From positions 6,038-70,037 of the forward strand of contig JBDRJN010000017.1 of NCBI GenBank assembly GCA_043814965.1: 64,000 nucleotides of DNA. Reading direction: 5' to 3'. The translations under genes were made by a program, and so were the position numbers. Under the pieces are notes generated by a model. It was given only the letters and a program-made list of their open reading frames with translations. It did not search any database and had not been told where the DNA came from. This stretch comes from Candidatus Omnitrophota bacterium. Its GTDB lineage: Bacteria; Omnitrophota; Gorgyraeia; Gorgyraeales; Gorgyraeaceae. Positions 4,827 through 64,000 of the stretch are shown in pieces. The stretch's first letter is position 1; each line of letters begins with the position of its first letter.

Positions 4827-4833
4827 AAAAGGA

Positions 4834-6776: not shown

Positions 6777-6792
6777 TCAAAAAGGAGAGCTT

Positions 6793-38900: not shown

Positions 38901-40355
38901 TACAGGCTCCTATTAGTAGTCCCAGAAGAACATTTTGATGAATTATTCGGTATTTTGGAAGAGAATTTTGATAGCCTTAAAAATCTGAAACAAACAAAGA
39001 AAGAAATAACTGCCAAATTTCAGGATATAGTTAAATTAAACCCTGAATTAAAGGATCTTTCGCAGAAAACCATTGTCCGATGGGCTAGTGAGCAAATGGG
39101 CATAACTTCGCGTAAAAGGCTTACAGAACCAGGCGCAAAAGACAATATTGCCAGCGCTTTTCGAGATAAGCTGAAAGCTGATGATCTAGGTAGAAAGGTA
39201 AATAGCGGGGAAGCGAGCGAGGAAGAAAATAAAAAATATATGAACCTGATAGCTGTAAATAAGTTATTATCAGCGATCGTTGATAATGTGAAACTATACA
39301 AATCCTGGCTTTCAGAGATACCAGATGCAGAGACTGACCCCAGCAAAATGTTGCCAGGCAAAGTCTTAATCGAACCCAATCAAACTACAGAAACCTCCCC
39401 TGGTCCGCGATCGGGATTGGTAGAAAACACCATAGAAAATTCTGAATCAGAAGAATCAAAGATCCAGACTCAGATTAGTGAATTTTTAAATATTACACGT
39501 GAAATCAATAGAAGCGATTCTAAACAAAAAGTTAATTATGTATTTGATAAGGTAGGCCCAAATATCGACACTATTTTAAGAGGCCATCTTTTAGATGAAG
39601 GTATTTCAGCTATTAGAAGAGAAATAACATATGACTCTAAAGATCTAGAACTCTTTGAAACATCAAAATATTTCTTAGAGCTTCTTATAGAAAATTCTAC
39701 AGTGTTTTCATCAGAAGATGCCTTAGCCGGCAGAATACAATTATTATCGAAGCAGTATAGTATGGTAGAAAGAGTTGTAAAAGAATGCGATGATCTTTTA
39801 AATAATCCTGCACTTATAAGTGAGTTTGCAGATGCAGTAAAAGGTTTTAAGTTGGATCTAGAGAAACAAAAAAATAAGATGACAAATATTATAGATTACT
39901 TAAAGGCTAAAGACTTTTTTGAAGAAGGAGAAAATCCATCCGAAGTCTTAGCTGATATTGAGATAGATCATGTAGTTTTAGATGTAATGGATGGCATAGG
40001 GCGTCCTAATAGTTTTGTAGGCATATTAGACGCTCTTTTGATAAAAGGAAACATTAAATCAATAACTGTATTTAGCCGTTCTCAAGATAGTTTAAATATT
40101 TTTATAGATAGAATAGGGCTTGAGAAATTTAATGAACTTAAAGAAAAAGGCATTAATTTTGTCGTAGAAAAAAAACTATGGGAAGAAGGCAATAATTCTG
40201 AAGCTAATCTTTGGGCGAAAGTAGGAAATGAATTGTTCAATATAGATAGGCATATGTTTGGCGATAAAATAGGAATAAATAGGGTAACGATATTAAATGT
40301 TAAAGATAAACTATCAGAAGGAAAAATGCTAATAGAACATCTAAATAATATGTAA
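29994..40355 (+). CDS. giant 3453-aa multidomain protein with two MutS-family (domain V) ABC-ATPase modules and an N-terminal signal/anchor segment
   Basis: Uninterrupted 10.4-kb ORF. The first module at aa ~485-655 has Walker A GSNMSGKS, Walker B LVFVDEGYSTTSP, and the MutS C-terminal motif GPGDSSALDVAKALGLPQSIL. The second at aa ~1320-1490 has GSNMSGKT, LVIIDEMGSTTSP and SNSIAVAKTMGF. MutS-core-like helices precede module 2. A possible Rossmann GxGxG (LYGGAGADVS) lies at aa ~1540, with ETSPG(R/P) linkers. An alternative start at the Met at 30063 (MSKFKKPLISLLISAIFII) would give a signal peptide. Confidence 0.8.
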   Translation: MNKKYFNADGVMGYPRRHFFVYIMSKFKKPLISLLISAIFIINNTAYAIDLPAKSCLRINHMTDKENKDEEIGRIKDVYKALENNTIESEKNIPRDNKGRFSEEEGKNAIDMAMLLSESKYVNIPFTVKEYHEIWKVKYPDKTISTSTIYNDLNKAIEKGLVVKSNKSSYYELTQRAKSLFSEGSDNKEERSQRNILYNVSEAKLYTKAEDGTLRKNKKFYLPGEDKIFLSLVNKPLNKKEDILDRQFAVTSLIDAGSEKIEELKDSSSSVYQWINTYKYLWEIDENERYGAFGSGKSAKRRIEQFIDEGIINKDTLSGDIKKAGKSAIKDEMSKKDEALLKIRTIDYYKEEAQELVDNIRKIAGQDGKVLNALADNLQRNIDKTNAPSLLGFIELVEKNKWDAISDLMHNLESLEYSVEEINAFLTFSALVINDEYAKVTYDDTKPASYKNGWLFIEKKKAEEHYWSDEEKEKDQVLNDSPEDIPVVVLTGSNMSGKSHYLKQNYFIQLLGQSFGYVPAKEANLRIYDHIAYLDRPSTDSYNDLSAFGKEIENWKPVIKDISSNSLVFVDEGYSTTSPEDQAKFSKATAEFIKDNNAHIMMASHNEEFINTLNGAEGTKFYHFEINVDGNTVDFTNRLRDGPGDSSALDVAKALGLPQSILDRSQNFLDGKIEPVEPNPNHLPKNITRYTEEEREGLKKETGNFLAFFPYENVLDIKPGYDGKNKLELKYKSPNKIDHYGYGFGSNDKLKEIYNFEPIFKLFSQDRDFSNFSPILSTDLGKIKNPNYITKIQSILKLGSSNDSKEILERQKMFSELISKPELRESMREDLLGIGNLMYSLVFARQYISFESFNLQFLESAIPDFRNRIVKDENKDVSMDLFLGILDMNLKLTGLAYEDIGVSEEIKKLQNLLSIESELAQLYEEDHRYWIENKDNMSSEGYKSQEKEFKNKVTALAKKFTEITGEKLVKEDKFYVTDIRESLKKICKDINEKAQEKIPPVSLFDENIWPILREETDRLYPFVDNELSRTVFSAPPHVIGFYYIKALLTDENLVEKLVGQLKSTDSVHLHQFANYFDKIFNVWFGEFKTGIDYLKHKNDLPGKIAEVEKNIKEEKAYQKSLIKGSEEITRILQDNPDFLQKRIDDCEAQIKNKEKDIVNYSEIVERNPGDGYWVNLLKESKDAKLNLEKELKDLPLVQKAVNGEISFGDNIDQDYLFKLVHDDFVGSKIRNLSSKLSMLKGELDSNPFERRSGFDEILNESFKMHVLLTMAYLMDYQGWKPVEFTNDLTIDMQDAWNLVKTKDEQVPLDFTMNDNEKVKIFSGSNMSGKTFAEKTLIWNALSGLTTGYAPNGGMKMPIFDHVVYIDRVTAQIDRKLSSFGHEIEYWKTFLNAIDDDDLALVIIDEMGSTTSPKYQSALSYAMSEEMLEKGHFLVVASHNHAYIDAFENTNDKYSNTYNLLTRIDEEGKAVFDYKLVPGHEPSNSIAVAKTMGFDKMVGYIEEDNKADELLIPILAEPYINHDKAVKDMVNPGNKDFVGLYGGAGADVSNVLYSTNATKVYFVDTRSVFLDKLKYYWQNTKLSQEEENLYKEYSKEKYFAGFGDVGKLIGDLELYLTGELKSIGVTSKDIIDINNDESGNLRIKFNWAYDKDSPKKEREIIFMQDDITKPSDKLIESINGKIDFYYQRAALDIPMKYNVFIKKIGDCMKPNGFMITDNNSPRGDFGFYYITPKLTDFKLLEDSKDMKTSAKEIENLRRGYMGPYGWAVSIMQKKAESLVSSEPTETSPGRGTGTNNPTQPTKNIPLDKKDIGAKLDGIKPKNISSINRDAKSAEVLKFLGDIDSAPSDKKAQLVVDYILNLSGMAFKTKSFPVSKERLDQIEDRQSKFLERYSKKHGLSPSLKKYINIQYRSLTKISEDKYATIASINRIDYFLVLSKDESGIEDFKLISMDSKDEIKKYQKIANNFVRKILPGDKNKKKREKVEDDISSFFNEIKRKANRDEEFDRFFKDTDHPDLPFSYALGSPALKVPELESAKEPIQLEAKTEERKYKTIAEITDEVLLKPIESLIKIDKDGNPRALTQDEILLEYKKGALEALRTKEGYEDESELKQWISLILKAIEYNDMEFNHIEKKEGWFLLDEISFPKLRESARKNILTAATIPRDGKTWVFIKENMNLYQAAYALTKLSGVEQKMTIVGLGEKCTETLRSSIRTVIQEAYKETKPIESSEIKDEEKNLDFHNRFLQKLHYSYKVDPEFRKAIDELREKVLSQIHPQESEAFRFITDNEITSFALEFAARIGETPLIADPYTSWGIIDNEKDEPHYFINYSELYAKHKKAIDKYTHYSHYEFIIDDGSWSGLKVKGGMNYLYNTLRNIFTYNEIVDFLKSETNKGLINPIVKPYETEQFFLPNIDFTRPSDEDAFDNMNIDQLFQAVENMPKEEWEKYKVNILNRYSYLARKGEIEPVFFMKHISALAKKDVDILRDKHASWASGHKYYFDRAEITRAIIETVLRSSKSSFLNDDFLLEYYSQADEVKDDGTFVYYETKDYKKTDEQISQVNAINRLANGYMGEGPISRYPLYALSMIMNISPERIGPKTMNLFVAMAEAGRDRYKLYIGDDRGWLEDSYGVTPVFDIPIRAFDYHPEYYSKLLVESKITPDILTFLIRPETAPGDNIGLFSSLREPGAEEREYKSFLSGEIIKGLVTGNSVEGNQLKLLKAIINDFSAVANNTILEHWRKFSKDDLNSLLGLKTKVDSSILEKMETIFSKEGLGNRVVALFLAMYPDFNIETAKDLDKLLKDDSVQTTFGILKAIKDKLWTIEEIRALYRANLWSFTSANVRHTNLKQVLNLSEEDKSKLFIVLSGKKLLPQNIFDIYPLNIPKDHALYDKYSHELKTYSMSYSSFTGAMEMVADSKELEESVKGRVTHRSRLLFNDLGAILKLPRKDLLRKVELLEKFETNKVELDNTAYRLLLVVPEEHFDELFGILEENFDSLKNLKQTKKEITAKFQDIVKLNPELKDLSQKTIVRWASEQMGITSRKRLTEPGAKDNIASAFRDKLKADDLGRKVNSGEASEEENKKYMNLIAVNKLLSAIVDNVKLYKSWLSEIPDAETDPSKMLPGKVLIEPNQTTETSPGPRSGLVENTIENSESEESKIQTQISEFLNITREINRSDSKQKVNYVFDKVGPNIDTILRGHLLDEGISAIRREITYDSKDLELFETSKYFLELLIENSTVFSSEDALAGRIQLLSKQYSMVERVVKECDDLLNNPALISEFADAVKGFKLDLEKQKNKMTNIIDYLKAKDFFEEGENPSEVLADIEIDHVVLDVMDGIGRPNSFVGILDALLIKGNIKSITVFSRSQDSLNIFIDRIGLEKFNELKEKGINFVVEKKLWEEGNNSEANLWAKVGNELFNIDRHMFGDKIGINRVTILNVKDKLSEGKMLIEHLNNM

Positions 40356-54174: not shown

Positions 54175-54876
54175 TTGAATAACGAGGAGGTGGAGATGAA
54201 AAAGATCTTAAGTATCGCGTTAGTTTTTTTAGTGGCAATGTTCTTTATTGTTCCCAGTGGGTTTACGCAGGATGGCATGGAACAGCTTAAAGCAGAGAAT
54301 CAGAAGTTAAAGCAGGTTATAAGGGATCTAGAGAGAAAGCTGCAATCTATGGATCAAAGCGGATATGGCCAAGGTGGTTCTGAAGAGGCTTCTTATAGCA
54401 CAGGAAATGAGGGGAGTTATAGTGAAGGCTATACAGGTGAAGCAGGAGAGGTTTCTCAAGATATGCCGCCCAAGAGTATAGTAGATAGGCCATGGGAGAA
54501 GAAAGCAGATATTAATCAAGATGGCGTAGTAGATCAGACTGAGATGGGCCAATGGAAAGATAGGTCTCAAGGTAGAGGCAATCCTCCTGGACCTCAGGGA
54601 GGACCAGGAGCTGGCCCTAGATTTGAAGGACAGGGTAATCCTCCAGGTCCAGCTGGCGGCCCTGGTAAAGGCCCTAGGCCAGAAGGTATAAACCCTCCGG
54701 GCCCAAAAGGCGGACCAGGCGCTGGACAGAAATTTGAAGGCCGAAGCAATCCACCTGGACCAAAAGGCGGCCCTGGTAAAGGACCTAGATTCGAAGGTAA
54801 AGGCAACCCTCCAGAGCCTAAGGGCGGGCCAGGCCGAGGTAATCCTCCAGGTCTAAAAGGCGGCAAGAAACGCTAG
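54175..54876 (+). CDS. secreted protein with EF-hand/dockerin-like Ca-binding motif and five or six collagen-like GNPPGPxGGPGxGPRFEG repeats
   Basis: Signal peptide, coiled-coil segment, DINQDGVVDQTE motif, then ~19-aa Gly/Pro repeats. Confidence 0.6.
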   Translation: MNNEEVEMKKILSIALVFLVAMFFIVPSGFTQDGMEQLKAENQKLKQVIRDLERKLQSMDQSGYGQGGSEEASYSTGNEGSYSEGYTGEAGEVSQDMPPKSIVDRPWEKKADINQDGVVDQTEMGQWKDRSQGRGNPPGPQGGPGAGPRFEGQGNPPGPAGGPGKGPRPEGINPPGPKGGPGAGQKFEGRSNPPGPKGGPGKGPRFEGKGNPPEPKGGPGRGNPPGLKGGKKR

Positions 54877-54977: not shown

Positions 54978-55550
54978 ATGCCTAAAGAAATAGAGACCAA
55001 ATTTAAGATAACTTCCCCGCGCGAGATAAGAACTTTACTTAAAAAGATAAAAGCTAGATTTACCATCAAACAACTGGAAAAAGATATCTATTATAAAGTT
55101 CCAGGCGCCCTTTCCAGAATAAATTCCATTAGATTAAGAAAGATAAGTAAAAAAGACGGCTTATTTACTATAAAGTCTTTGACAAAAGATAACCCCGGGG
55201 GGATATTCAAGGTGCTTGATGAAAAAGAGATGCCTATATCTGAAGTTGAAAGATTCAAAAATATACTTAAGGCTCTTGGTTTTGAAATAGCTTTTAGAAA
55301 AGAGAAAAGAAGGGAGATATATTCATATAGCTCGACAAAGATCACTTTAGATAAACTGCCTTTTATAGGGTGGTATCTGGAGATAGAAGGTTCAAAAAAT
55401 AATATAAAAAAGTTAGCAAAACTCTTATGTCTTGATATGAATAGCGCTATCCCAGGGACATATATGAGCATATTTAACGAGTATAGAAAACACCATAAAA
55501 GAAAAGACTTGGAGCTTACATTTGAAAATGAAAGACACAACTTACCTTGA
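54978..55550 (+). CDS. CYTH-domain protein (triphosphate tunnel metalloenzyme / class IV adenylate cyclase-like)
   Basis: N-terminal EIETKF motif and alternating charged beta-strands of the CYTH barrel. Confidence 0.6.
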   Translation: MPKEIETKFKITSPREIRTLLKKIKARFTIKQLEKDIYYKVPGALSRINSIRLRKISKKDGLFTIKSLTKDNPGGIFKVLDEKEMPISEVERFKNILKALGFEIAFRKEKRREIYSYSSTKITLDKLPFIGWYLEIEGSKNNIKKLAKLLCLDMNSAIPGTYMSIFNEYRKHHKRKDLELTFENERHNLP

Positions 55551-56088
55551 GCTAGTAGAACTAGCCCTAAAACATAATAAAAAGACCTTGTGTGATTTTA
55601 AGGGTAAAAGCATGGCCCCTGCATTGAAAGACGGCATGAAGGCCATGGTAGGGAATATAGCCCCTGAAGAGATAAGAAATGGGGATATAATACTTTATAG
55701 ACAAAATGCAGCATTGATCATCCATAGAGTCATAAAGATATTAAAGGAGGGCGGGGGTAAAAGGACATTTATTACCAAAGGAGATAATCACGCTTATATG
55801 GACGCAGCGTATATTCCCGAAGAAGATTTGCTAGGAAAGATCACGGGTGCTTTTTTTGAAGACAACATGGATGTAAATTTATTAATCGAAAGTAGATTTA
55901 TAGAGATTTTATATGTTATAATGGGAAACATAGCGTTACTCTTAAGAAACAATAGAAGATCCGTACCCAGCTTTATAAGAGCTATCTTTAAAAAGATAGT
56001 AGGAGGATTTTTTATAATACTTAAAAGTCTTATTCATTTTATATATATAAGGATACAAAATGGACAGATGTTATCTAGAAGACCCTAG
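55522..56088 (+). CDS. S26/S24-family peptidase (SipW/signal-peptidase-I-like)
   Basis: Nucleophile motif KGKSMAPAL (GxSMxP) and box-D-like KGDNHAY; overlaps the neighbouring genes by 29 nt on each side. Confidence 0.6.
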   Translation: MKMKDTTYLELVELALKHNKKTLCDFKGKSMAPALKDGMKAMVGNIAPEEIRNGDIILYRQNAALIIHRVIKILKEGGGKRTFITKGDNHAYMDAAYIPEEDLLGKITGAFFEDNMDVNLLIESRFIEILYVIMGNIALLLRNNRRSVPSFIRAIFKKIVGGFFIILKSLIHFIYIRIQNGQMLSRRP

Positions 56089-57208
56089 CTTATATAGAGG
56101 AAATAGTAGATATGCGTTAGGAACAGTATATCTATATTCTAAATACTGCAACCTAAAATGCAGGCACTGCTGGATAAATCCGCCTTATTCAAGCGAGAGG
56201 ACACTGAAAAAAGGTGAGATAACCCTTGATGAGATGATCCTGGTTTTGGAAGAATGTAGAGAGATAGGTATGAGGAGCGTTAAGCTCTCAGGCGGAGAGC
56301 CTTTTACAAGGCCTGATATATTTCAATTGCTAGAATACCTAAAAGAAAAAAAACTTGGTATAACTATAGAGACCAATGGCATTGCTATAAGAGAAAAAGA
56401 GGCTAAGGCATTGAAAGATGCTGGGGCAGGACACGTAGCTATATCACTGGATGGCCCTACTGCCGAGATGCATGAAAATATAAGAGGGGTTGAGGGTTCT
56501 TTCGAAGATACATTAGAAGGGATCAGGTATATCAAAAAGGAAGGCCTTAACTTACAGATCATAATCTCTCTCTGGAAGGGCAACAAGGATCACATAAAGT
56601 CCACTATTAATCTCGCAAAAGCGCTTGGAGCGAATTCAGTAAAGATAAATCCTATCAATAGCATTGCCCGGGCAGACATAATGCATGAAAGAGAAGAGGC
56701 ATTGAGCGTGAGGGAGACTATAGAGTTTTACAGGTCTCTCAGGGAAGGCCTCAAGAAAGAGCCAAAAATAAATGTGATATTTGATATCCCCCCTGTCTTT
56801 AGGCCATTTATAAATATGAGATTAGAAAGTCTTTGCGTGTGCGGCATCTTTAATATACTCGGCATATTAGGTGACGGGAGGGTCTCTATATGCGGCATAG
56901 GCTCTAGCTCCGAGACGCTCATTTTAGGAAAAGTTGGTAAAGACAGCATTAAAGACATCTGGGAAAACCACCCTGTATTAAAAGAGATCAGAGTTAATAT
57001 ACCTGGCAAACTGGAAGGGATCTGCGGGAGATGTATATTTAAGACATATTGCCTTGGTAAATGCAGGGCTGAGGCGTATTATACGAGCGGTTCACTCCTA
57101 GCGCCGTTAACGTTTTGTGAAGTCGCGTATAAAGAAGGGATGTTTCCTGAGTCGAGGATAATTAATAATATCAAAGATCAAAATGTAAAAAGCAAAATTA
57201 CAAATTAA
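56060..57208 (+). CDS. radical SAM / SPASM-domain peptide-modifying enzyme 1
   Basis: CNLKCRHC (Cx3Cx2C), GGEPF, and a C-terminal Cys-rich SPASM region (CVCG...CGIG...CGRC...CLGKC). Confidence 0.8.
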   Translation: MDRCYLEDPSLYRGNSRYALGTVYLYSKYCNLKCRHCWINPPYSSERTLKKGEITLDEMILVLEECREIGMRSVKLSGGEPFTRPDIFQLLEYLKEKKLGITIETNGIAIREKEAKALKDAGAGHVAISLDGPTAEMHENIRGVEGSFEDTLEGIRYIKKEGLNLQIIISLWKGNKDHIKSTINLAKALGANSVKINPINSIARADIMHEREEALSVRETIEFYRSLREGLKKEPKINVIFDIPPVFRPFINMRLESLCVCGIFNILGILGDGRVSICGIGSSSETLILGKVGKDSIKDIWENHPVLKEIRVNIPGKLEGICGRCIFKTYCLGKCRAEAYYTSGSLLAPLTFCEVAYKEGMFPESRIINNIKDQNVKSKITN

Positions 57209-57300
57209 AATTCAAAAATAAATTTTCTAAAAAAAGGGATTTATAATTTTAAATTTTTATATGTAATTTTGATATTTAATCTTTAATATTTGATTTTATT

Positions 57301-57567
57301 ATGAGAATAAGGCAATCTAAAAATGTGTTAGTAGCTGATTTCGACGATAAAAAAGTAGTACTTAATACTGATAGTTATAAGCCATATCTATTAAATCCTA
57401 CTGCATCCGAGGCCTGGGATCTTTGTAAGACTTTGAAAAAGAAAAGTGATATAGTGGATTTTTTATCAAAAGAATACAAAGTAGATATTAAAAAAGTAAG
57501 GATAGATGTAAAAAGTTTGATAAATGACCTTAAAAAAGCAGGACTTATAAAAACTATTAAGAGGTAG
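57301..57567 (+). CDS. PqqD-family protein (RiPP recognition element-like peptide chaperone)
   Basis: PqqD pattern ..VVLNTDSYKPYLLNPTASEAWDL..SDIVDFLSKEY.VD..KVRIDV..LINDLKKAGLI. Confidence 0.65.
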   Translation: MRIRQSKNVLVADFDDKKVVLNTDSYKPYLLNPTASEAWDLCKTLKKKSDIVDFLSKEYKVDIKKVRIDVKSLINDLKKAGLIKTIKR

Positions 57568-57569
57568 AT

Positions 57570-58910
57570 ATGAAAAATGCTCTATTAAAGCGAAACCAAA
57601 AGATCATATTCAATGAAGAAGACGATATAGGCCTGCTTTTTAATCCTGACTCTGGACGCGTAAATACGCTTAACGAGACAGGTAAATTCATCTGGTCCAG
57701 GCTTGATGGTAAGACTACAAAAGAAAGAATAGTAGATGAAGTCTCGGAAGAGTTTGATATAGAAGACAAGGAAATAGTAAAAAACGACCTCGATAAGTTT
57801 ATAAATGAATTAGGAATGTCAAATTTCATAGAAGATTATATATATATCCCTCCCTTGCAGGGGATGTGTTTTGGGATCACCTCGCTCTGTAACCTGAGCT
57901 GCAAGCATTGCTTAAATAGAAATCTAGGGGAGCAGGAACTTGATATGACAACTGAAAAGCTCCTTAGTGTTATAGATGAGATGTATGAAATAGGCATAAG
58001 GAGTTTGAGCTTATTTGGGGGAGAGCCATTGGCTCATCCTGATTTTAAAAAAATAGTCGAGTATCTAAATGGAAAAAATATGAATATTTCTTTAAATACA
58101 AATGCATCTTTAATAGATCTTGATATGGCGAAGTGGCTAAAAGAGCATAAAGTTAATGGCACAGTAGTTAGTTTTGACGGCTCAAATGCTTTTATAATGG
58201 ATGAGATGAGAGGAAAAGGCGCGTTTCAGGCTGCTATAAAAGGCATAAAGGCTTTAAGGAGTGAAGGTATAAATGTAATGCTCTCAGCGACATTAAATAA
58301 GATCAATTTTAGGGATATTAGAGAGATGGCCCTTTTAGGAAAAGAGATAGGAGGCAACTCCATACGTTTTAATCATGTTTTTTTCGCAGGTAATTCAGCT
58401 TGTTTTGTAAAAGATATATATCTTAACCCCCAAGAAGAGAAAGAGGCAGTTGAAAGCGTATTTAAAATGAAAGAAGAGTTCGGAGATTTTATAAATCAGT
58501 CAAGCTCTTACTTGTGCCAGAAGCAAAAGCTTGATAAAGTCAAAGACTATAAGCCGTCTATCGATAAGATAACTATACCTTCGTGCGGGGCTGCGATGTC
58601 AAAGTGCGCTATAAGGCCTGACGGATGGGTAGTGCCATGTGAGATAATATGGCATGTAAAGGCAGGGAATCTTAAAGAAAGATCCTTAAAAGAGATCTGG
58701 GAAGGATCAAGCGTTATGAACTCTTTTAGAAAGCCGCTCGAGATAGACCTAAATGAGATACCAGAATGCAAAGGATGTAAATATCAGTATCTATGTTTTA
58801 TAGGCCACCGCTGTTACCCGTATCATTACCCTGGCGGGATAAAGAATAAGGCCCTATATTGCTGGAAAAATGACAAAAAGGGGACAGACACCTTTTTTCT
58901 AAATATATAA
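57570..58910 (+). CDS. radical SAM / SPASM enzyme 2 with an N-terminal fused PqqD-like (RRE) domain
   Basis: N-terminal ~90 aa are PqqD-like (LLFNPDSGRVNTLNETGKFIWSRLDG), followed by CNLSCKHC, GGEPL, and SPASM cysteines (CGAAMSKC...PC...CKGCKYQYLC). Confidence 0.8.
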   Translation: MKNALLKRNQKIIFNEEDDIGLLFNPDSGRVNTLNETGKFIWSRLDGKTTKERIVDEVSEEFDIEDKEIVKNDLDKFINELGMSNFIEDYIYIPPLQGMCFGITSLCNLSCKHCLNRNLGEQELDMTTEKLLSVIDEMYEIGIRSLSLFGGEPLAHPDFKKIVEYLNGKNMNISLNTNASLIDLDMAKWLKEHKVNGTVVSFDGSNAFIMDEMRGKGAFQAAIKGIKALRSEGINVMLSATLNKINFRDIREMALLGKEIGGNSIRFNHVFFAGNSACFVKDIYLNPQEEKEAVESVFKMKEEFGDFINQSSSYLCQKQKLDKVKDYKPSIDKITIPSCGAAMSKCAIRPDGWVVPCEIIWHVKAGNLKERSLKEIWEGSSVMNSFRKPLEIDLNEIPECKGCKYQYLCFIGHRCYPYHYPGGIKNKALYCWKNDKKGTDTFFLNI

Positions 58911-58952
58911 AATATAAAAATAAAAAGGTGTCTGTCCCCTTTTTAAAAGCAT

Positions 58953-59408
58953 ATGACAAAACAAAAAAAATCCCAAAAAAAAGAATATAAAGCGCCTACT
59001 GTATCAGACTTATTCGGAGCTAATATAAGGCCAGCATTGGGAGGCACTCAGCCGTGTACGCTTGGCGGTGATGTTAATTGTAATCTAGGTGTTACGGCAT
59101 ATGGTTATTGTAATGATGGCCAAGATGCTAACGGAGACTTTTGTCAGGTAGGAACTGGTGCTACTGGCGGTGTTTGCTATGGCGGGAATTTTGTTTCAGG
59201 ATATTGCCAAGTAGGAACTTCTGCTACGGATAAATGTGTCTCAGGCCAGGATCCGACTACTTTATGCGGCGCAGGTATTGGTGTTTATGCTGGGGATTGC
59301 TATACAGGTACTGTTGCGTCACAAGGACTGTGCGGACCAGGAGATCTTGCTGCCACTTGTGCTGGCGGCACCAGTGTCAGCGGTTGCTTGGTAGGATCAC
59401 CTATTTAG
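58953..59408 (+). CDS. candidate RiPP precursor: 151-aa Gly-rich protein with ~11 tandem decapeptide repeats, each ending in Cys, and no signal peptide
   Basis: Lys-rich N-terminal ~35 aa (leader-like), then repeats such as NLGVTAYGYC / QVGTGATGGVC / YGGNFVSGYC / QVGTSATDKC / VSGQDPTTLC, giving 14 Cys. An RBS-like AAAAAGG lies upstream. Confidence 0.55.
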   Translation: MTKQKKSQKKEYKAPTVSDLFGANIRPALGGTQPCTLGGDVNCNLGVTAYGYCNDGQDANGDFCQVGTGATGGVCYGGNFVSGYCQVGTSATDKCVSGQDPTTLCGAGIGVYAGDCYTGTVASQGLCGPGDLAATCAGGTSVSGCLVGSPI

Positions 59409-59419
59409 AAAAGGGGATC

Positions 59420-60250
59420 ATGCCTAAAGATAATGCAAAAATAATAAAGATCTCTGGATTATCATTGGTTCTAAGAGAAAAAGATAAGATAATACCTTCA
59501 ACTTTTAATAGATTTTTCTATAAAAAACAAAATATACCAGATAATAGCTGGCATCTAGAATCTATAGATCAAGGCATTAAAAGGCCAAAAGATATTATCT
59601 TGCCAGAGACATTGGATGTGCGTAAACTTCTAAAGCCGCAGTCGTATTTTAATAAGAATACATTTATAAATATCAAGGCAAAAAGAATAAAGCATCTTTA
59701 TTCAGATAAATATGAAAAAAATAATAAATATTATGATACAAAGCTGTTTTCTTTTTGTTATTCTCAAATGCTGGCTTCAGAAAATGGCCTGCTCCTGCAT
59801 GGTTCAGCTGTCATCAAAGGTAATTCAGCGTATTTATTTTTTGCGCCTTCCGGGGGAGGCAAGACCACAGCTGCAAAGCTCTCTAGAAGATCCAAGGTAT
59901 TAGGGGATGATGTAGTAGCGCTTAAAAAATGTGGAAGATCCTATTATGTATATTCAACACCATGGAACCATAAAGATTTTACGCGTAATAGCAGTATTAG
60001 CGCAAAGGTAGACAAGGTATTTTTTCTAAAAAAGTCTAAAAATATATCCTTTAAGCCAATAAAAAAAGAAGACGCGTTCATAAAATTACTTACCCAGCAG
60101 ATACATTTTTTTATATATACCAAAAGGCCTATACTGGATAAACTTTTTTTTACAGCGTCTGGTTTTATCAAAAACACTGAAACTTACGAGATGAAGTTTA
60201 GGAAAGATAAATCATTTTGGAATAAATTAAATAAAGAGGTGCTGCGATGA
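59420..60250 (+). CDS. HprK-related kinase (HPr kinase C-terminal-domain-like P-loop protein)
   Basis: LLLHGSAVIKGNSAYLFFAPSGGGKTTAA matches the HprK C-domain P-loop. Start set at the Met at 59420 with an AAGGGGAT RBS; the track ORF's upstream extension overlaps the precursor gene out of frame. Confidence 0.55.
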   Translation: MPKDNAKIIKISGLSLVLREKDKIIPSTFNRFFYKKQNIPDNSWHLESIDQGIKRPKDIILPETLDVRKLLKPQSYFNKNTFINIKAKRIKHLYSDKYEKNNKYYDTKLFSFCYSQMLASENGLLLHGSAVIKGNSAYLFFAPSGGGKTTAAKLSRRSKVLGDDVVALKKCGRSYYVYSTPWNHKDFTRNSSISAKVDKVFFLKKSKNISFKPIKKEDAFIKLLTQQIHFFIYTKRPILDKLFFTASGFIKNTETYEMKFRKDKSFWNKLNKEVLR

Positions 60251-61851
60251 AGACCAATACGATTGTCATTATAGTGATAGCGATGATCCTGGTAATAGTA
60301 TATTTTTCTATACCGCCTTTAGGTATATACGCTAATGACGGGGGTACAAAGTATATACAGATGAAAAGTTTCTATCTCAATCACTGGAAAAGGCTTGATA
60401 TAGATTATCCAGGCCAGGAACTGGGGCTTAGCTATAGCTATCTAAATCCTGTCAGGTCTTTTAAAGTAATGGATAATAAGCTATTTATAACCTGTTCCCC
60501 TCTTTTTACGTATTTAACTAGTTTAGTTTATCCGTTTCTAGGTGATAGAGGGATACTCTTTTTCCCTCTATTATCTTTTTTTATAAGTATTATTTTATTT
60601 TTAAAGATACTGGATATGTTATTAGAAAAATGTATTTTTTACTATATCCTGGTAGCATCGTTTTTGATAGGATCGCCAGTTTATTTATATAGCATTATTT
60701 TCTGGGAACATCTCCCAGCAGTATGTTTAGTGATGTTAAGCCTTTATTATATAACCAGGTATTTTAAAAAAGAAAAAAGTTCATTAGATATATTCTTGAG
60801 CGCTTTTTTTCTGGGAAGTTCTCTTTTTTTCAGGACAGGTATGTGGGCGCTTATAACAGGATACCTGTCCTTTCTAAGCTATGTATTTATAAAAAAGAAT
60901 GAGTTTAAATATATCATAGCCATGTTATTAGGATTTACTGTGCCTATAGCCGCATATTTTTTATCAAACTTGGTATTTTATGGGCATCTCCTGGGGCTTC
61001 ATGCAACAAGCCATCTACCGTATAATTTTTCCTTGAAGAAGGCCTTGGTATCTAGCGCGATTTTATTTACAGGCTATATAGTAGTAGGTTTATTGAATAA
61101 AAGTAATGATAAAAGATCTCTTATAAAATTTTATTATCTACTAAATTTTATATTGATATCTGTATTATTAGGTTTATTTATAAATTCTCCGATCAGAAGT
61201 CTTGTTACTACATTTCCGCTTATCATCATGATCTTTTATGGTATAGGCGAGAATATAGAAGAGTTATTCAGCAGCAAGCCTGAGTTAAGGCATTTTCTAT
61301 TAAGCACAGTTATTATTTATATTTCTTTGGTTACAATATTTCTTTTCAATAATCCTGATACTAGCATAAGGTATCTTCTCCCAGCTGTACCTATTGCGCT
61401 GATTTTTATTGGAGTCATCTCAAAAGAAGCCATGGTATTTAAGCCTTTTTACATACTCACGGCGTTATTAGTAATATTCTCTTTTACTGTAAATCTTTCT
61501 GAGCTTAGAAAAACAGTATTGGGATGTAAGTACTATAACTATAAAAGGGTCGAGTTTCTTAAAGAGAATACAAAAGATAAAGACGTAGTGATATTCCAGG
61601 CCAATCCTCTCATGGAACATGCTGGGCCTTTATACTTTGAACGTGTCTATATAGTAAGCAAAAACAATGGACGCGATACAAAAGATATATTGGATACTCT
61701 TAAAGAAAAAGGCATTCAATATTGTTATTATTGGACGATGTATAAGGAATTTAAAGAAATTTTTTTAAAAGATACGGAATATAAAATAGATAAGTACGAA
61801 TTTAAAGTAGAAAATTCCCCTACTCATTATTTATTAAGGATAAAATTATAA
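60247..61851 (+). CDS. large polytopic membrane protein (12 or more TM helices; possible GT-C-like or peptide-processing membrane enzyme)
   Basis: Hydrophobicity pattern only. Confidence 0.4.
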   Translation: MKTNTIVIIVIAMILVIVYFSIPPLGIYANDGGTKYIQMKSFYLNHWKRLDIDYPGQELGLSYSYLNPVRSFKVMDNKLFITCSPLFTYLTSLVYPFLGDRGILFFPLLSFFISIILFLKILDMLLEKCIFYYILVASFLIGSPVYLYSIIFWEHLPAVCLVMLSLYYITRYFKKEKSSLDIFLSAFFLGSSLFFRTGMWALITGYLSFLSYVFIKKNEFKYIIAMLLGFTVPIAAYFLSNLVFYGHLLGLHATSHLPYNFSLKKALVSSAILFTGYIVVGLLNKSNDKRSLIKFYYLLNFILISVLLGLFINSPIRSLVTTFPLIIMIFYGIGENIEELFSSKPELRHFLLSTVIIYISLVTIFLFNNPDTSIRYLLPAVPIALIFIGVISKEAMVFKPFYILTALLVIFSFTVNLSELRKTVLGCKYYNYKRVEFLKENTKDKDVVIFQANPLMEHAGPLYFERVYIVSKNNGRDTKDILDTLKEKGIQYCYYWTMYKEFKEIFLKDTEYKIDKYEFKVENSPTHYLLRIKL

Positions 61852-61853
61852 AT

Positions 61854-63668
61854 ATGGAAGATCGGATCATAAAAAAGGATTTTGAGAAAGTGACTCTAGA
61901 GACCATTAAAGAGTCTTTTAGGCTTTTCTCCAGGTTTAATAAGTTTATCTTACGTTATTGGAAGATAGAGCTGATACTGCTTATGGTAGGAAATATCTCT
62001 ATGATCTTTGGCTTGATAAATCCTTATATAGGAAAGATCGTCCTTGATAGGGGTATCCTCGGGAGAGACATGGAGGTATTCATAAGATATACGATATTCG
62101 CAGGTATTATATATCTTATGAATATGGGTATAGGGACCGGAGCTGGCTATTTAAGTGCTTATGTCTCAAGAAAGATCAGGATCGACCTTACAAAGGTTGT
62201 ATTTAGAAAGATAAGAAAACTTTCTTTAAAGTTTTTTCAAGAACGCTCTACCGGGGAATATATCTTTAGGATGAATAGCGATATATCCAGCGCAGCTGGT
62301 ATAATAATAAATACGCTTCCGAACGTAATACTGACTTTTTTAAAGTTGATCTTTGTAACAATAGTTATTTGTTTTATTAATTGGAAAATACTGCTCTTGG
62401 TCTTAGTCTACCATGTCATGACGATAATAAGGATGAGATTTTTTATAGACAAGATGCAGGAATTGAAAAAAGAAGGGTTAGAGAAAGCGCAGTATATATT
62501 TAAAGTGCTGGGTGAATTTTTTTCGCATATTTATTTTGTAAAGTCTTCAGGCACTATGGGCCGCATGGTAAAAAAATATTTTCACGCGCTTAGCGACAAT
62601 ATAAGGATAGAGATAAAGAATTATAGATTTGGGATTCTTTCTGGATTTGCAAGCAGTATCCCTAATAAGCTATTCTATGGGACTATTAGTATTGTAGGCA
62701 CTATCATGGTGATAAAGGGCCGCATTACCCTGGGAACTCTAGGCGCGATCATGGCATATTTATCTCAAGGTATAGGGGCGTATGGGGCGGTATTAGGCCT
62801 TGGGAACAACATGATCATGAATCGCATATCACTAAAACGGCTGACAGAGCTGCTAGACGCCAAAGTTGATGTAGAAGAAAGCCCAGATGCTAAATTTATT
62901 GATTTTAAAAATGCGAGTATTGAATTTAAGAATGTATCTTTTGGTTATGAAGAAGGTAAGGATGTTTTAGAGAATATCAGTTTTTCGGTTCCTCCAAGAT
63001 CTAAAATTGCGCTTATAGGGCATTCAGGGTGCGGCAAGACCACTATCTTAAACTTGATATTGAGGTTATATGATGTAAAAAGCGGTGAAGTATGTTTAGG
63101 GGGCTACAATATAAAAGACTTGAAGTTTAAGTCTATACATAGCCAGGTAAGCATGGCTCTTCAGAGCCAATTTTTGTGGAATGAAAGCATAAGGGATAAC
63201 ATCAGTTATCTAAACCCAAGCATAAGTGAAGATGAATTAAGGCATATTGCAAAGATGGTTGAACTCGATACTTTTATAGAGGAGTTTCCGGATAAATACG
63301 ATACTATATTAGGCGAAGAAGCTTGCAAGATCTCCCAAGGCCAGAGGCAGCGCCTTGCAATAGCAAGAACTCTGGCTAAAAGACCAAGGATCTTGATGCT
63401 GGATGAGGCGTTTTCATCAATTGATTCAGAGACAGAGGATAAGATAGTCAATAATATAAAAAATTATTTTAAAGATTCAACGATTATCTTGGTGTCTCAC
63501 AGGCTTTCAGCTGTAAAGAATATGGATATAGTATATTTTCTAGAAGGCCAGGGTAAGATGTCCATAGGTAAGCACCATGAACTTGTAAAAGACAATCTTA
63601 ACTATAGAAAATTATTTGCCAGTCAGATCGAAAAAGAATTAGAAGAGATCTTAACGTCAAAAGAGTGA
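61854..63668 (+). CDS. ABC exporter, fused TMD-NBD
   Basis: 6-TM domain, Walker A GHSGCGKTT, signature LSQGQRQR, Walker B LMLDEAFSSID. Confidence 0.8.
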   Translation: MEDRIIKKDFEKVTLETIKESFRLFSRFNKFILRYWKIELILLMVGNISMIFGLINPYIGKIVLDRGILGRDMEVFIRYTIFAGIIYLMNMGIGTGAGYLSAYVSRKIRIDLTKVVFRKIRKLSLKFFQERSTGEYIFRMNSDISSAAGIIINTLPNVILTFLKLIFVTIVICFINWKILLLVLVYHVMTIIRMRFFIDKMQELKKEGLEKAQYIFKVLGEFFSHIYFVKSSGTMGRMVKKYFHALSDNIRIEIKNYRFGILSGFASSIPNKLFYGTISIVGTIMVIKGRITLGTLGAIMAYLSQGIGAYGAVLGLGNNMIMNRISLKRLTELLDAKVDVEESPDAKFIDFKNASIEFKNVSFGYEEGKDVLENISFSVPPRSKIALIGHSGCGKTTILNLILRLYDVKSGEVCLGGYNIKDLKFKSIHSQVSMALQSQFLWNESIRDNISYLNPSISEDELRHIAKMVELDTFIEEFPDKYDTILGEEACKISQGQRQRLAIARTLAKRPRILMLDEAFSSIDSETEDKIVNNIKNYFKDSTIILVSHRLSAVKNMDIVYFLEGQGKMSIGKHHELVKDNLNYRKLFASQIEKELEEILTSKE

Positions 63669-64000
63669 TACCTCAAAATCATAAGAATAAAATCCTCGCT
63701 TCCACAGAAGAACTTATAGCTATTTGTATGAGGCATGAAGCTAGTAGCTATAAGGAAGAAATATTAGATCTGATACAGGGTGGCATTGACTGGGGTCTTT
63801 TAAGTAAGCTAGCTTGTGAAAAAGGCATAGCCTCACTTACGTACAAGGCTTTAAAGTTTTATGCGCCAGCTGGCCTCACACAAAAAGAGAACCTGGATAT
63901 ATTAAAGACATCCTACCTTATCTCATCCACAAAAAATAATTTTTATAAAAAAGAATTAAAGAATATACTAAGTATTCTCTACGAAAAGAATATTCCTATT
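63665..64000 (+). CDS. partial (3'-truncated by the window) protein, possibly a PF14907-type nucleotidyltransferase
   Basis: The open frame continues to the window end; the N-terminal pattern resembles the uncharacterised nucleotidyltransferase family that often pairs with HprK-like kinases in RiPP clusters. The start is uncertain (GTG at 63665 or ATG at ~63728). Confidence 0.35.
   Translation, partial: MIPQNHKNKILASTEELIAICMRHEASSYKEEILDLIQGGIDWGLLSKLACEKGIASLTYKALKFYAPAGLTQKENLDILKTSYLISSTKNNFYKKELKNILSILYEKNIPI

What the first reader, a model, noticed from the sequence alone, without database searches (positions are those of the whole stretch)
58953..59408. Multi-core-like precursor: 11 tandem about-10-residue Gly-rich repeats, each terminating in Cys
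The protein has no signal peptide and a Lys-rich ~35-aa leader-like N-terminus (MTKQKKSQKKEYKAPTVSDLFGANIRPALGG). It then has ~11 repeats of x(8-10)-C with conserved Gly and Tyr positions (QVGTGATGGVC, YGGNFVSGYC, QVGTSATDKC ...), giving 14 Cys at a regular ~10-residue spacing. This is what is expected for iterative rSAM thioether (sacti/ranthi-type) or other Cys-directed crosslinking across multiple core units. The protein is unusually long for a RiPP substrate.
Basis: seen in the sequence. Interest (0 to 1): 0.75.

Follow-up and report, generated by a model that had tools for sequence, protein, structure and literature searches.

The report
Twelve-unit Cys-Gly repeat RiPP precursor
This gene encodes a long precursor peptide with twelve evenly spaced Cys-x-x-Gly units, very probably modified by two neighbouring radical-SAM enzymes; it is an enlarged member of a gene-cluster family that was predicted from genomes years ago but whose product nobody has determined.

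Summary
The ORF at 58953-59408 (+) is real. It encodes a 151-aa peptide with a Lys-rich leader, no signal peptide, and 12 Cys (not 14) spaced 8-11 residues apart.

The better register is C-x-x-G-x-x-[A/V/P]. All 12 Cys have Gly at +3 (0 of 200,000 shuffles).

It belongs to a widespread precursor family with a Y-x-x-P-x-[VIL] leader and 3 to 13 CxxG units. This family sits next to paired ScmE-like and ScmF-like radical-SAM/SPASM genes in 27 of 35 such loci, against 0 of 50 loci with an unpaired relative. NCBIfam's ScmA model (SynChlorMet cassette) weakly hits intermediate members but not this peptide. No Scm model reaches its cut-off here.

Most likely mechanism (inferred): the RREs bind the leader and the two rSAM enzymes install one Cys thioether per unit, possibly onto Gly+3 as in streptosactin. 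Phosphorylation, leader removal and export would follow.

Verdict: a new variant of a known kind. The chemistry is untested.

The parts
58953..59408 (+). Precursor peptide gene (151 aa), a ScmA-like, CxxG-repeat family member
   Evidence: ORF and translation. A family HMM built without it scores it at 56.5 bits, E 1.4e-19 for a single-sequence search space. It is the only ORF of this kind in the window. The same gene position (after the RRE-fused rSAM, before the ScmC-like gene) is occupied by homologous peptides in L001, L084-L087, L090 and L091.
58986..59003 (+). Leader RRE-binding motif Y12-K-A-P-T-V17, followed by S-D-L-F
   Evidence: Y and P are invariant in a 22-sequence family alignment. 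Across the family the motif is Y-x-x-P-x-[VILA..]-x-[DN]-[LFI], lying 16-26 residues before the first Cys. It matches the [Y/W]xxPx[L/V/I/A/F] motif bound by lasso and LPP RREs (PMC13381572).
59055..59405 (+). Core: 12 tandem units C-x-x-G-x-x-[A/V/P]-x(1-4), residues 35-151, ending in CLVGSPI
   Evidence: 12 of 12 Cys have Gly at +3, and 11 of 12 have A/V/P at +6. Family-wide, Gly at +3 is 97% and A/P/V at +6 is 73% over 134 units. The Cys-Cys spacing is 9-11 in 84% of 146 intervals.
55522..56088 (+). SipW/archaeal-type signal-peptidase-I-like protein, the putative leader peptidase
   Evidence: TIGR02228 scores 73.1 bits, above its cut-off of 51.85. The closest solved structures are SEC11A/C, with aligned SM-P, HRV and GDN boxes. 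The catalytic candidates are Ser30/His68/Asp88, compared with LppS S29/H68/D93 (PMC13381572). It has no N-terminal TM segment; its hydrophobic segments are C-terminal. It is syntenic in L001, L004, L005, L084-L087, L090 and L091.
56060..57208 (+). Radical-SAM/SPASM enzyme, ScmF-like (no RRE)
   Evidence: The best NCBIfam hit is TIGR04251 ScmF at 339 bits, below the cut-off of 400. Pfam finds Radical_SAM and SPASM. CNLKCRHC lies at residue 30, with a C-terminal Cys cluster.
57301..57567 (+). Discrete PqqD-type RiPP recognition element
   Evidence: Pfam PqqD, E 4e-14. The best NCBIfam hits are lasso PqqD chaperones, below cut-off. The closest solved structures are TbiB1 (5v1u, E 4e-5) and LppB (9x8z_B, E 9e-5).
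57570..58910 (+). Radical-SAM/SPASM enzyme, ScmE-like, with an N-terminal fused PqqD/RRE domain
   Evidence: The best NCBIfam hit is TIGR04250 ScmE at 166 bits, below the cut-off of 400. Pfam finds PqqD (residues 23-86), Radical_SAM and SPASM. CNLSCKHC lies at residue 107. The fused RRE is 27% identical to the discrete one. About 100 homologues were found, mostly in Omnitrophota.
58875..58944 (.). 23-bp perfect stem-loop between the rSAM stop and the precursor start, a REP-like element
   Evidence: Free energy -37.5 kcal/mol, z -9.1. The arm motif GGGGACAGAYAC occurs 11 times in related locus L086, which also encodes a Y1 transposase. Strong hairpins occupy the same intergenic position in L085 and L086. 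Its role (terminator, stabiliser or mobile element) was not determined.
59420..60250 (+). ScmC/HprK-like P-loop protein, the putative peptide kinase
   Evidence: TIGR04249 ScmC, E 2.5e-5 at 23.8 bits, below the cut-off of 125. There is a weak PEPCK_ATP P-loop hit. It gives a 187-bit match to the L001 protein annotated PF27840 ScmC, which also has a weak Hpr_kinase_C hit.
60247..61851 (+). Polytopic membrane protein, LA_3751/LA_3752-like putative glycosyltransferase
   Evidence: NF047440 scores 164 bits, below the cut-off of 200. It has no Pfam or PDB match. A 41%-identical copy lies at the same position in L091. It is absent from the other relatives.
61854..63668 (+). MsbA/HlyB-type ABC exporter without a peptidase domain
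   Evidence: Pfam finds ABC_membrane and ABC_tran only. The NCBIfam hits are all below cut-off. It is syntenic in the relatives.
63665..64000 (+). N-terminal fragment of an NTP_transf_5-type nucleotidyltransferase, which runs off the window
   Evidence: PF14907, E 5e-4 on the 112-aa fragment. It is 42% identical over 60 aa to the syntenic PF14907 protein of L001, E 1e-11.

Best explanation
The ORF encodes the substrate of a ribosomal-peptide (RiPP) maturation cluster. It is an expanded, divergent ScmA-type precursor.

Anatomy (shown):
- A basic leader of about 28-34 residues carrying Y-K-A-P-T-V.
- A core of about 117 residues made of 12 contiguous units, C-x-x-G-x-x-[A/V/P]-x(1-4).

Mechanism (inferred):
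1. The YxxP motif is bound by the PqqD-type RREs. One is fused to the ScmE-like enzyme and one is discrete.
2. The ScmE-like and ScmF-like radical-SAM/SPASM enzymes act iteratively on every unit and use each Cys thiol to make one intramolecular thioether. The predicted mass change is -2 Da per unit, up to -24 Da.
3. The invariant Gly at +3 is my preferred acceptor. This would be an S-to-C-alpha link giving unnested 4-residue rings, as for Cys31-Gly34 in streptosactin.
4. By analogy with the LPP pathway, the HprK-like protein phosphorylates a Ser or Thr.
5. The discrete RRE presents the leader to the cytoplasmic SipW-like peptidase, which removes it.
6. The NTP-transferase and the glycosyltransferase-like protein may add further groups.
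7. The MsbA-like pump exports a single long, multiply stapled peptide.

My confidence is about 0.8 that this is an rSAM-modified RiPP precursor, about 0.65 that each Cys forms a thioether, and about 0.4 that Gly+3 is the acceptor.
For: Motif statistics:
- 12 of 12 CxxG, with 0 of 200,000 shuffles matching either the spacing regularity or the motif count.

Family:
- Peptides with the same leader and unit motif lie beside ScmE/ScmF-like pairs in Omnitrophota, Thermodesulfobacteriota, Syntrophobacter-type Deltaproteobacteria, Chloroflexota, Planctomycetota, Aegiribacteria and others.
- 27 of 35 pair loci carry one. Of 52 non-pair loci, 2 carry one, and both are IS-disrupted copies of a pair locus. 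Fisher p = 3e-13.
- An HMM built without the window peptide scores it at 56.5 bits.
- The curated ScmA precursor model hits intermediate members: L013 at 29.6 bits and L017 at 23.8 bits.

Enzymes and accessory genes:
- Both enzymes have CX3CX2C and SPASM Cys clusters.
- The RREs are lasso/LPP-like.
- The gene set SpI-like peptidase, RRE, HprK-like, MsbA-like and NTP_transf_5 equals the LPP core. In LPP, leader cleavage by the SipW-like peptidase with RRE help and Ser phosphorylation by the kinase were shown experimentally (PMC13381572).

Minimal unit:
- The last unit is always truncated after about +6. In L010 it is only C-V-H-G. The conserved unit therefore lies downstream of each Cys, and its minimal form is CxxG.

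Precedents:
- Streptosactin's two unnested S-C-alpha rings, Cys25-Ser28 and Cys31-Gly34, made by an rSAM/SPASM enzyme (PMC8172795).
- Repeat-containing rSAM substrates (TvgA; PMC9062424).
- Pairs of rSAM enzymes acting together (thuricin CD, PMC12093266, listed).
Against: - No product has been observed for this or, as far as I could find, for any SCM-type cluster (searches found nothing).
- The window proteins all score below the curated Scm cut-offs, and the peptide does not hit TIGR04252.
- Sequence cannot tell thioether formation from other rSAM chemistries, nor which residue is the acceptor. Invariant Gly could be a conformational requirement rather than the acceptor.
- The role of the second rSAM enzyme is unexplained.
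- The family HMM and the co-occurrence count are partly circular, because the model was trained on peptides found in those same loci.
- AlphaFold2 gives no confident structure: mean pLDDT 38.6.
Confidence: 0.72

Rival explanations
1. An LPP-like product in which the Cys are not crosslinked. The peptide stays linear and is phosphorylated or glycosylated. The two rSAM enzymes would do something else, such as epimerisation of the +6 Ala/Val, C-methylation, conversion of Cys to formylglycine-like residues or dehydroalanine, or C-C links. The Cys would stay free or form disulfides or metal sites after export.
For: - The full LPP core gene set is present (PMC13381572).
- Position +6 is a conserved small hydrophobic residue.
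- SPASM enzymes include epimerases and the anaerobic sulfatase maturase, both of which appear among the weak hits.
Against: - The only invariant core residues are Cys and Gly+3.
- Among the characterised rSAM/SPASM peptide maturases reviewed in the papers read here, those whose conserved core residue is Cys make thioethers (PMC8172795, PMC10288494).
- The LPP paper describes no rSAM genes at all, so the rSAM pair is the feature that tracks with the CxxG core.
Confidence: 0.15
2. A true multi-core precursor. The 12 units would be cut apart into about 10-residue modified peptides, as in cyanobactin-type or other multi-core RiPPs.
For: - There are twelve similar units behind a single leader.
- Unit number varies from 3 to 13 between relatives.
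- Some relatives often have Lys just before the Cys, for example L025, L013 and L014.
Against: - There is no conserved recognition or cleavage sequence between units. Outside C, G+3 and +6 every position is variable.
- Only one peptidase gene is present. Its LPP homologue cuts once, at the leader-core junction.
- The window peptide has a single Lys in its core.
Confidence: 0.05
3. An ordinary exported Gly/Cys-rich structural or matrix protein. It would be processed by a SipW-type signal peptidase, as TasA is in Bacillus. The neighbouring rSAM genes would act on something else.
For: - A SipW-like peptidase is encoded in the cluster.
- Relatives are followed by Wza/Wzc-type polysaccharide export genes.
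- LPP clusters sit in capsule loci (PMC13381572).
Against: - There is no hydrophobic signal sequence.
- The peptidase lacks an N-terminal TM segment and resembles LppS, which works with an RRE.
- The leader carries the RRE-binding motif.
- The peptide family tracks the rSAM pair even in clusters that have no such peptidase, L009-L012.
Confidence: 0.04
4. A metal-binding or Fe-S-carrying Cys-rich peptide (metallothionein-like). A spurious ORF is the other possibility in this group.
For: The core has 12 Cys and 27 Gly in about 117 residues, and AlphaFold2 predicts no confident fold for the peptide.
Against: - The motif and the synteny are conserved across phyla while the DNA and the non-motif residues have diverged. 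This excludes a spurious ORF.
- Single Cys spaced 10 residues apart, without CxC or CxxC pairs, is unlike known metallothioneins (my knowledge).
- The RRE motif and the leader peptidase argue for a processed RiPP.
Confidence: 0.03

Closest known systems
SynChlorMet (SCM) cassette: ScmA precursor with ScmC/D/E/F (NCBIfam TIGR04248-TIGR04252). To my knowledge it was defined bioinformatically by Haft & Basu 2011; that paper was not readable here.
   Same: - There are two paralogous rSAM/SPASM enzymes whose best hits are ScmE and ScmF, a PqqD protein, an HprK-like ScmC-type protein, and a small Cys/Gly-rich peptide.
- Syntrophobacter-type cassettes (L009-L012) carry peptides with the same CxxG unit, for example CASGSSASSCGTGSSPGGPCSDGSNHSW.
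   Different: - Every window protein is below the curated cut-off (ScmF 339/400, ScmE 166/400, ScmD 26/100, ScmC 24/125), and the peptide does not hit ScmA.
- It has 12 units instead of 3.
- The leader is YxxPxV rather than DYFSPNI.
- The ScmE-like enzyme has a fused RRE.
- It has an added SipW-like peptidase, ABC exporter, NTP transferase and GT-like protein.
Linear polyphosphorylated peptides (LPP), Popov et al., Nat Commun 2026 (PMC13381572)
   Same: [quoted passage not shown]
- The leader has a YxxPxV motif.
- The precursors are long (35-200 aa in LPP).
- Both are associated with polysaccharide loci.
   Different: - LPP clusters were described from searches seeded in Bacillota, and the paper calls LPPs restricted to Bacillota. 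They have no rSAM enzymes.
- Their leaders continue as ...VLxHQxIxFETxxS, and their cores are not Cys-periodic.
- Here two rSAM/SPASM enzymes and a CxxG-repeat core are added, in Omnitrophota.
Streptosactin / GggB (type II, unnested sactipeptide)
   Same: A rSAM/SPASM enzyme makes S-to-C-alpha links from Cys to the residue at +3, including a C-x-x-G ring (Cys31-Gly34), in tandem and unnested (PMC8172795).
   Different: - Streptosactin has two rings in a 14-mer, against 12 potential rings in a core of about 117 residues.
- It has a different leader and protease and a single enzyme.
- No specific similarity of the window enzymes to GggB was shown.
Repeat-core rSAM RiPPs: freyrasin/PapB (six Cys-Asp thioethers, my knowledge) and TvgA/TvgB (repeated TVGG to cyclopropylglycine; PMC9062424)
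   Same: One rSAM enzyme processes a tandemly repeated short motif many times within a single core.
   Different: - The motif here is CxxG, against CxxxD or TVGG.
- The unit length is about 10 residues.
- Two enzymes are present.
- PapB scores only 73 bits against a cut-off of 340.
Paeninodin-type phosphorylated lasso peptides
   Same: They share the [Y/W]xxPx[LVI] leader motif, the discrete B1-type RRE, the HprK-like kinase, the NTP transferase and the ABC exporter (PMC13381572; PMC10368454).
   Different: The window cluster has no lasso cyclase and no B2 cysteine protease.

Membership tests
SCM (SynChlorMet) cassette | Precursor matches TIGR04252 ScmA at or above 35 bits | tested here: not met
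   The window peptide gives no hit even at E <= 10. Related peptides reach 29.6 bits (L013), 23.8 (L017), 18.3 (L008) and 15-16 (Syntrophobacter-type), all below the cut-off.
SCM (SynChlorMet) cassette | Two rSAM/SPASM proteins matching ScmE (TIGR04250) and ScmF (TIGR04251) at or above 400 bits | tested here: not met
   ScmF scores 339.2 bits and ScmE 166.3 bits. Each is the best hit for its protein but is below the cut-off.
SCM (SynChlorMet) cassette | ScmD (PqqD-like, at or above 100 bits) and ScmC (at or above 125 bits) | tested here: not met
   ScmD scores 26 bits and ScmC 23.8 bits. The homologous L001 protein carries Pfam PF27840 ScmC.
SCM (SynChlorMet) cassette | Gene-neighbourhood logic: a paired rSAM/SPASM set, PqqD, an HprK-like protein and a small Cys/Gly-rich peptide | tested here: met
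   All are present and co-oriented at 55522-60250. The peptide family tracks the rSAM pair, 27 of 35 against 2 of 52 loci.
LPP (linear polyphosphorylated peptide) clusters | Archaeal/SipW-type signal peptidase I homologue with a Ser/His/Asp triad | tested here: met
   TIGR02228 scores 73.1, above 51.85. It aligns to SEC11. The triad candidates are S30/H68/D88, compared with LppS S29/H68/D93.
LPP (linear polyphosphorylated peptide) clusters | Discrete RRE, HprK-like kinase, NTP transferase and MsbA-like exporter | tested here: met
   RRE: Pfam PqqD, and the PDB hits include LppB 9x8z_B. Kinase: weak ScmC and P-loop hits. NTP_transf_5: only a fragment lies in the window. ABC exporter.
LPP (linear polyphosphorylated peptide) clusters | Leader consensus YxxPxVLxHQxIxFETxxS | tested here: inconclusive
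   YKAPTV matches the YxxPxV part. The rest (SDLFGANIRPAL) does not match.
LPP (linear polyphosphorylated peptide) clusters | No cyclising or crosslinking enzyme, so the product is linear | tested here: not met
   Two rSAM/SPASM genes lie inside the cluster. The LPP paper mentions none.
LPP (linear polyphosphorylated peptide) clusters | Multiple phosphorylation of a core Ser | not testable with these tools
   This needs mass spectrometry.
Sactipeptides / ranthipeptides | RRE-associated rSAM enzyme with a SPASM/twitch domain and a Cys-bearing core | tested here: met
Sactipeptides / ranthipeptides | Curated maturase models (StsB 625, AlbA 850, PapB 340 bits) | tested here: not met
   StsB scores 104 and 89 bits, AlbA 82 and 73, and PapB 73.
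Sactipeptides / ranthipeptides | S-to-C-alpha (or beta/gamma) thioether bonds in the product | not testable with these tools
   This needs MS/MS and NMR of the modified peptide.
Multi-core RiPP precursors | Conserved recognition or cleavage sequences flanking each core copy | tested here: not met
   Only C(0), G(+3) and a small residue at +6 are conserved per unit. The flanks are variable.
Sec-exported proteins | N-terminal signal peptide with a hydrophobic core | tested here: not met
   The maximum KD(19) in residues 1-45 is 0.37. The leaders of all relatives are basic and polar.

The most novel reading that the evidence does not exclude
The cluster is a previously undescribed hybrid of two pathways, the twin-rSAM SCM system and the SipW-peptidase/HprK/NTP-transferase 'LPP' system. 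Its product would be a core of about 117 residues carrying up to twelve tandem, unnested Cys-to-Gly(+3) sactionine rings, plus phosphate or glycan groups. That would be by far the most heavily thioether-stapled ribosomal peptide known. It would be exported to the envelope or capsule of an Omnitrophota bacterium.
Probability: 0.3. Interest if true: 0.8.

Novelty: new variant of a known kind. Interest (0 to 1): 0.58.

Why it matters
- The SCM-type twin-rSAM clusters have stood as a bioinformatic prediction without, as far as I could find, any known product. This work defines their substrate motif (CxxG with a small residue at +6, about 10-residue spacing, YxxP leader) across many phyla, which makes the chemistry directly testable.
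- It links that system to the recently described SipW-like leader peptidase/HprK/NTP-transferase module. This extends that module beyond Bacillota and beyond linear peptides.
- A 12-unit substrate is a natural test bed for the processivity and ring-forming logic of rSAM enzymes. It could also yield a very large, protease-resistant stapled peptide scaffold.
- The phylum is uncultured, so sequence is the only access to this biology.

Tried and rejected
- **Word-indexed protein search with the peptide** found only itself. The exhaustive phmmer search against 1.8 billion representatives gave one true relative (P0106), plus compositional matches to giant repeat proteins and a CGPGT-repeat lipoprotein. 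These were rejected as homologues because they have a signal peptide or a different repeat.
- **A profile search with 22 family members** gave only 5 more peptides, because E-values for short low-complexity peptides are harsh in a database of 5.8 billion sequences.
- **The first genome scan with the single rSAM protein** found nothing. The alignment-based scan worked.
- **Pfam and NCBIfam on the peptide** gave no family.
- **Tandem Repeats Finder** found no DNA repeat inside the ORF.
- **Literature searches** for SynChlorMet, ScmE/ScmF and the TIGR numbers returned nothing relevant. Haft & Basu 2011 is not held. Two rSAM reviews and papers do not mention SCM.
- **AlphaFold2 on the precursor** gave mean pLDDT 38.6. 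The idea of a polyproline-II or solenoid fold, prompted by the C0/G3/A6 triplet pattern, could not be supported, and no fold search was run.
- **Double-glycine/C39 leader processing** was rejected. The exporter has no peptidase domain, and the GG is not conserved.
- **Lanthionine-like chemistry via Ser/Thr phosphorylation at +4** was considered and rejected, because +4 is not conserved as Ser/Thr in this peptide and I found no gene with a lyase annotation in the cluster.
- **PDB sequence searches of the two rSAM enzymes** gave only distant hits (SkfB, PqqE, anSME, CteB) that do not decide the chemistry.
- **More distant RRE-fused homologues** (L088 Elusimicrobiota, L089) showed no CxxG peptide within the fetched DNA.
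Full report
**1. The observation**

The ORF 58953..59408 (+) is the first ATG after an in-frame stop and encodes 151 aa. The quoted N-terminus is correct. It is Lys-rich and has no hydrophobic stretch: the maximum Kyte-Doolittle 19-residue mean in residues 1-45 is 0.37.

- The peptide has 12 Cys, not 14, at residues 35, 43, 53, 64, 75, 85, 95, 105, 116, 127, 136 and 145. The spacings are 8-11.
- The conserved register begins with Cys. All 12 Cys are followed by Gly at +3, and 11 of 12 by Ala, Val or Pro at +6. Tyr is not positionally conserved.
- None of 200,000 shuffles of the core reached the observed spacing regularity, 12 CxxG motifs (maximum 9), or 11 CxxGxx[APV] motifs.
- Tandem Repeats Finder finds no DNA-level repeat in the ORF. 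The periodicity is therefore kept by selection on the protein and is not a recent duplication.
- It is the only ORF of this type in the 64-kb window.

**2. Surroundings**

The source is a Candidatus Omnitrophota MAG. The gene sits in a co-oriented block:

| Coordinates | Gene |
|---|---|
| 55522-56088 | Archaeal/SipW-type signal-peptidase-I homologue (TIGR02228, 73 bits, above cut-off) |
| 56060-57208 | rSAM/SPASM enzyme; best hit ScmF, 339 bits, cut-off 400 |
| 57301-57567 | Discrete PqqD-type RRE |
| 57570-58910 | rSAM/SPASM enzyme with an N-terminal fused PqqD domain; best hit ScmE, 166 bits, cut-off 400 |
| 58953-59408 | The peptide |
| 59420-60250 | ScmC/HprK-like P-loop protein (weak hits) |
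| 60247-61851 | Polytopic LA_3751-like putative glycosyltransferase |
| 61854-63668 | MsbA/HlyB-like ABC exporter without a peptidase domain |
| 63665-64000 | Start of an NTP_transf_5 nucleotidyltransferase that runs off the window |

Both rSAM enzymes have CX3CX2C and C-terminal Cys clusters. Genes upstream of 54978 (GldA/F/G-like ABC and others) look unrelated.

**3. Relatives**

Searches with the peptide itself were nearly blind. The ScmE-like enzyme, however, has about 100 homologues, mostly in Omnitrophota.

In the closest loci a 109-130-aa gene occupies the same position between the RRE-fused rSAM gene and the ScmC-like gene. It encodes the same kind of peptide with 7-13 CxxG units: L001, L084-L087, L090 and L091. 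One example is MKEKLSYEPPQIKDLFSQ...CAPGSPGGTSCGEGTSFSGNC....

An alignment-based scan of one genome per species returned 80 loci. A generic regex, and then an HMM, found peptides with the same leader and unit. They occur in Thermodesulfobacteriota, Syntrophobacter-type Deltaproteobacteria, Chloroflexota, Planctomycetota, Aegiribacteria and others, with 3-7 units.

- 27 of 35 loci that contain a ScmE-like plus ScmF-like pair carry such a peptide.
- Of 52 loci with only an unpaired relative, 2 carry one, and both are IS-disrupted versions of a pair locus. Fisher p = 3e-13.
- This count is partly circular, because the HMM was trained on peptides from those loci.
- An HMM built without the window peptide scores it at 56.5 bits over leader and core.

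**4. Family anatomy**

Leaders have a basic N-terminus and then Y-x-x-P-x-[VILA]-x-[DN]-[LFI]. Y and P are invariant in 22 aligned sequences. The first Cys lies 16-26 residues after the Tyr.

Cores are contiguous units:

- Gly at +3 in 97% of 134 units.
- Ala, Pro or Val at +6 in 73%.
- Ser, Gly or Thr common at +4.
- Cys-Cys spacing of 9-11 in 84% of 146 intervals, with a mode of 10.

The last unit is always cut short a few residues after +6, and in L010 it is only C-V-H-G. The functional unit therefore lies downstream of each Cys, and its minimum is CxxG.

Unit number is 3 in Syntrophobacter-type cassettes and 7-13 in the Omnitrophota clade with the RRE-fused enzyme. The window peptide (12) and L087 (12-13) are the largest seen.

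**5. What is known**

*SynChlorMet cassette.* NCBIfam holds a curated precursor model, TIGR04252 'SynChlorMet cassette protein ScmA', with ScmC/D/E/F models beside it. Intermediate family members hit ScmA below threshold (29.6, 23.8 and 18.3 bits, cut-off 35). The window peptide does not hit it. The kind of system was therefore predicted long ago. To my knowledge this was by Haft & Basu 2011, a paper I could not read here. I found no paper reporting a product.

*LPP family.* The non-rSAM genes equal the core set of the 'linear polyphosphorylated peptide' (LPP) family (Popov et al. 2026, PMC13381572). [quoted passage not shown] The paper showed three things experimentally:

- The kinase puts several phosphates on one core Ser.
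- The SipW-like peptidase (S29/H68/D93) removes the leader.
- It does so only when the RRE presents the leader.

The window peptidase has Ser30/His68/Asp88 in the matching boxes. It has no N-terminal TM segment, and its hydrophobic segments are C-terminal. The discrete RRE's closest solved relatives are the lasso RRE TbiB1 and LppB itself (9x8z). The LPP paper does not mention rSAM enzymes.

In relatives, the NTP transferase is followed by Wza/Wzc-type polysaccharide export genes. The GT-like gene recurs at the same place in L091 at 41% identity.

**6. Mechanism**

Shown: the leader motif, the repeat motif, the enzyme set and the co-occurrence.

Inferred:

1. The RREs bind YKAPTV.
2. The two rSAM/SPASM enzymes modify each unit. 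Because Cys and Gly+3 are the only invariant core residues, a Cys thioether is the most likely modification.
3. The precedent is streptosactin, in which an rSAM/SPASM enzyme makes unnested S-to-C-alpha rings Cys25-Ser28 and Cys31-Gly34 (PMC8172795). I therefore favour Cys(i) to Gly(i+3), with a predicted change of -2 Da per unit.
4. The second enzyme may be an obligate partner (thuricin CD is reported to need two rSAM enzymes acting together; PMC12093266, title and abstract). Alternatively it may modify another position, such as +6. This is unresolved.
5. Phosphorylation, RRE-guided leader removal (predicted between residues 27 and 34; in LPP the cut is 16 residues after the Tyr) and export follow by analogy with LPP.

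A single long product is more likely than released mini-cores, because nothing between units is conserved.

AlphaFold2 gives no fold (mean pLDDT 38.6). This is uninformative but compatible with a disordered substrate.

**7. Rivals**

The rivals considered are:

- A linear LPP-like product with non-Cys rSAM chemistry.
- True multi-core processing.
- An ordinary SipW-processed matrix protein.
- A metal-binding peptide or spurious ORF.

The evidence for and against each is given in the rival-explanations section. None explains the invariant Cys/Gly pair tracking the rSAM pair as well as the main proposal does.

**8. Verdict**

The Cys count, the repeat register, the 'multi-core' label and the GG leader end need correction.

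It is not a strict member of the curated SCM families, because all scores are below cut-off. It is not an LPP either, because it has rSAM enzymes. It is best described as a new, expanded variant that combines both. The chemistry remains to be determined.

Noticed in passing
window 58875-58944: A 23-bp perfect stem-loop (-37.5 kcal/mol, z -9.1) lies exactly between the rSAM stop and the precursor start. Its arm motif GGGGACAGAYAC occurs 11 times as inverted pairs in related locus L086, which encodes a Y1 (RAYT-like) transposase, so it looks like a REP-type element. Strong hairpins occupy the same intergenic spot in L085 and L086.
   Followed up: partly
window 54978-55550: A CYTH / class-IV adenylate-cyclase-like (triphosphate-tunnel) gene overlaps the start of the SipW-like peptidase gene by 29 nt. 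It is absent from all related loci. A triphosphatase next to a putative polyphosphorylating pathway is suggestive, but this was not tested.
   Followed up: partly
window 54175-54876: A 233-aa protein has an N-terminal hydrophobic segment followed by Pro/Gly-rich repeats (GNPPGPxGGPGxGPRFEG). It matches no Pfam or NCBIfam family.
   Followed up: no
window 29994-40355: A giant 3453-aa ORF has an internal MutS/KamC-type ATPase region, with NCBIfam hits below cut-off. Relatives of the cluster (L084, L086) also have giant ORFs upstream.
   Followed up: no
L001 1124-1255; L087 4395-4526; L090 3869-4003: In several relatives a second cassette (ScmC-like, PqqD, a 43-44-aa peptide, rSAM) lies directly upstream. 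Its peptides have a W-x-E-P-x-I-[KR]-K leader and a C..D[PT]..C core. W-type and Y-type leader motifs thus sit side by side, the situation studied for lasso and LPP in PMC13381572. This second cassette is not present in the window.
   Followed up: partly
L001 vs L002/L003 (about 4595-6979): These are variants of the same metagenomic locus. In L002 and L003 the ScmF-like side is replaced upstream of an IS (DDE_Tnp_1), a 23S_rRNA_IVP gene and an AbiEii-like gene, and the precursor differs at two non-motif residues (S to R, I to N).
   Followed up: no
L084-L087, L090 (downstream of NTP_transf_5): Wza-like (Poly_export/SLBB) and Wzc-like (GNVR/AAA_31) polysaccharide export genes consistently follow the cluster in Omnitrophota relatives. 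This echoes the capsule-locus context reported for LPP clusters.
   Followed up: no
window 60247-61851; L091 9629-11257: The LA_3751-like polytopic membrane protein between the ScmC-like gene and the ABC gene has a 41%-identical syntenic copy in L091 but is missing from the other relatives. It is an optional tailoring or envelope component of unknown fold, with no Pfam or PDB match.
   Followed up: partly
L063 5284-5760: Two small peptides ending in GGGGCGCGCGCG lie next to a different rSAM/SPASM gene in a Poribacteria MAG. This is a distinct Cys-Gly dipeptide-repeat precursor family.
   Followed up: no
L028 3104-3506: A DNA tandem repeat reads as (S/F)GVRC(S/Q/P)V in all three frames near an SCM-type pair. 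It is probably a nucleotide repeat rather than a gene.
   Followed up: no
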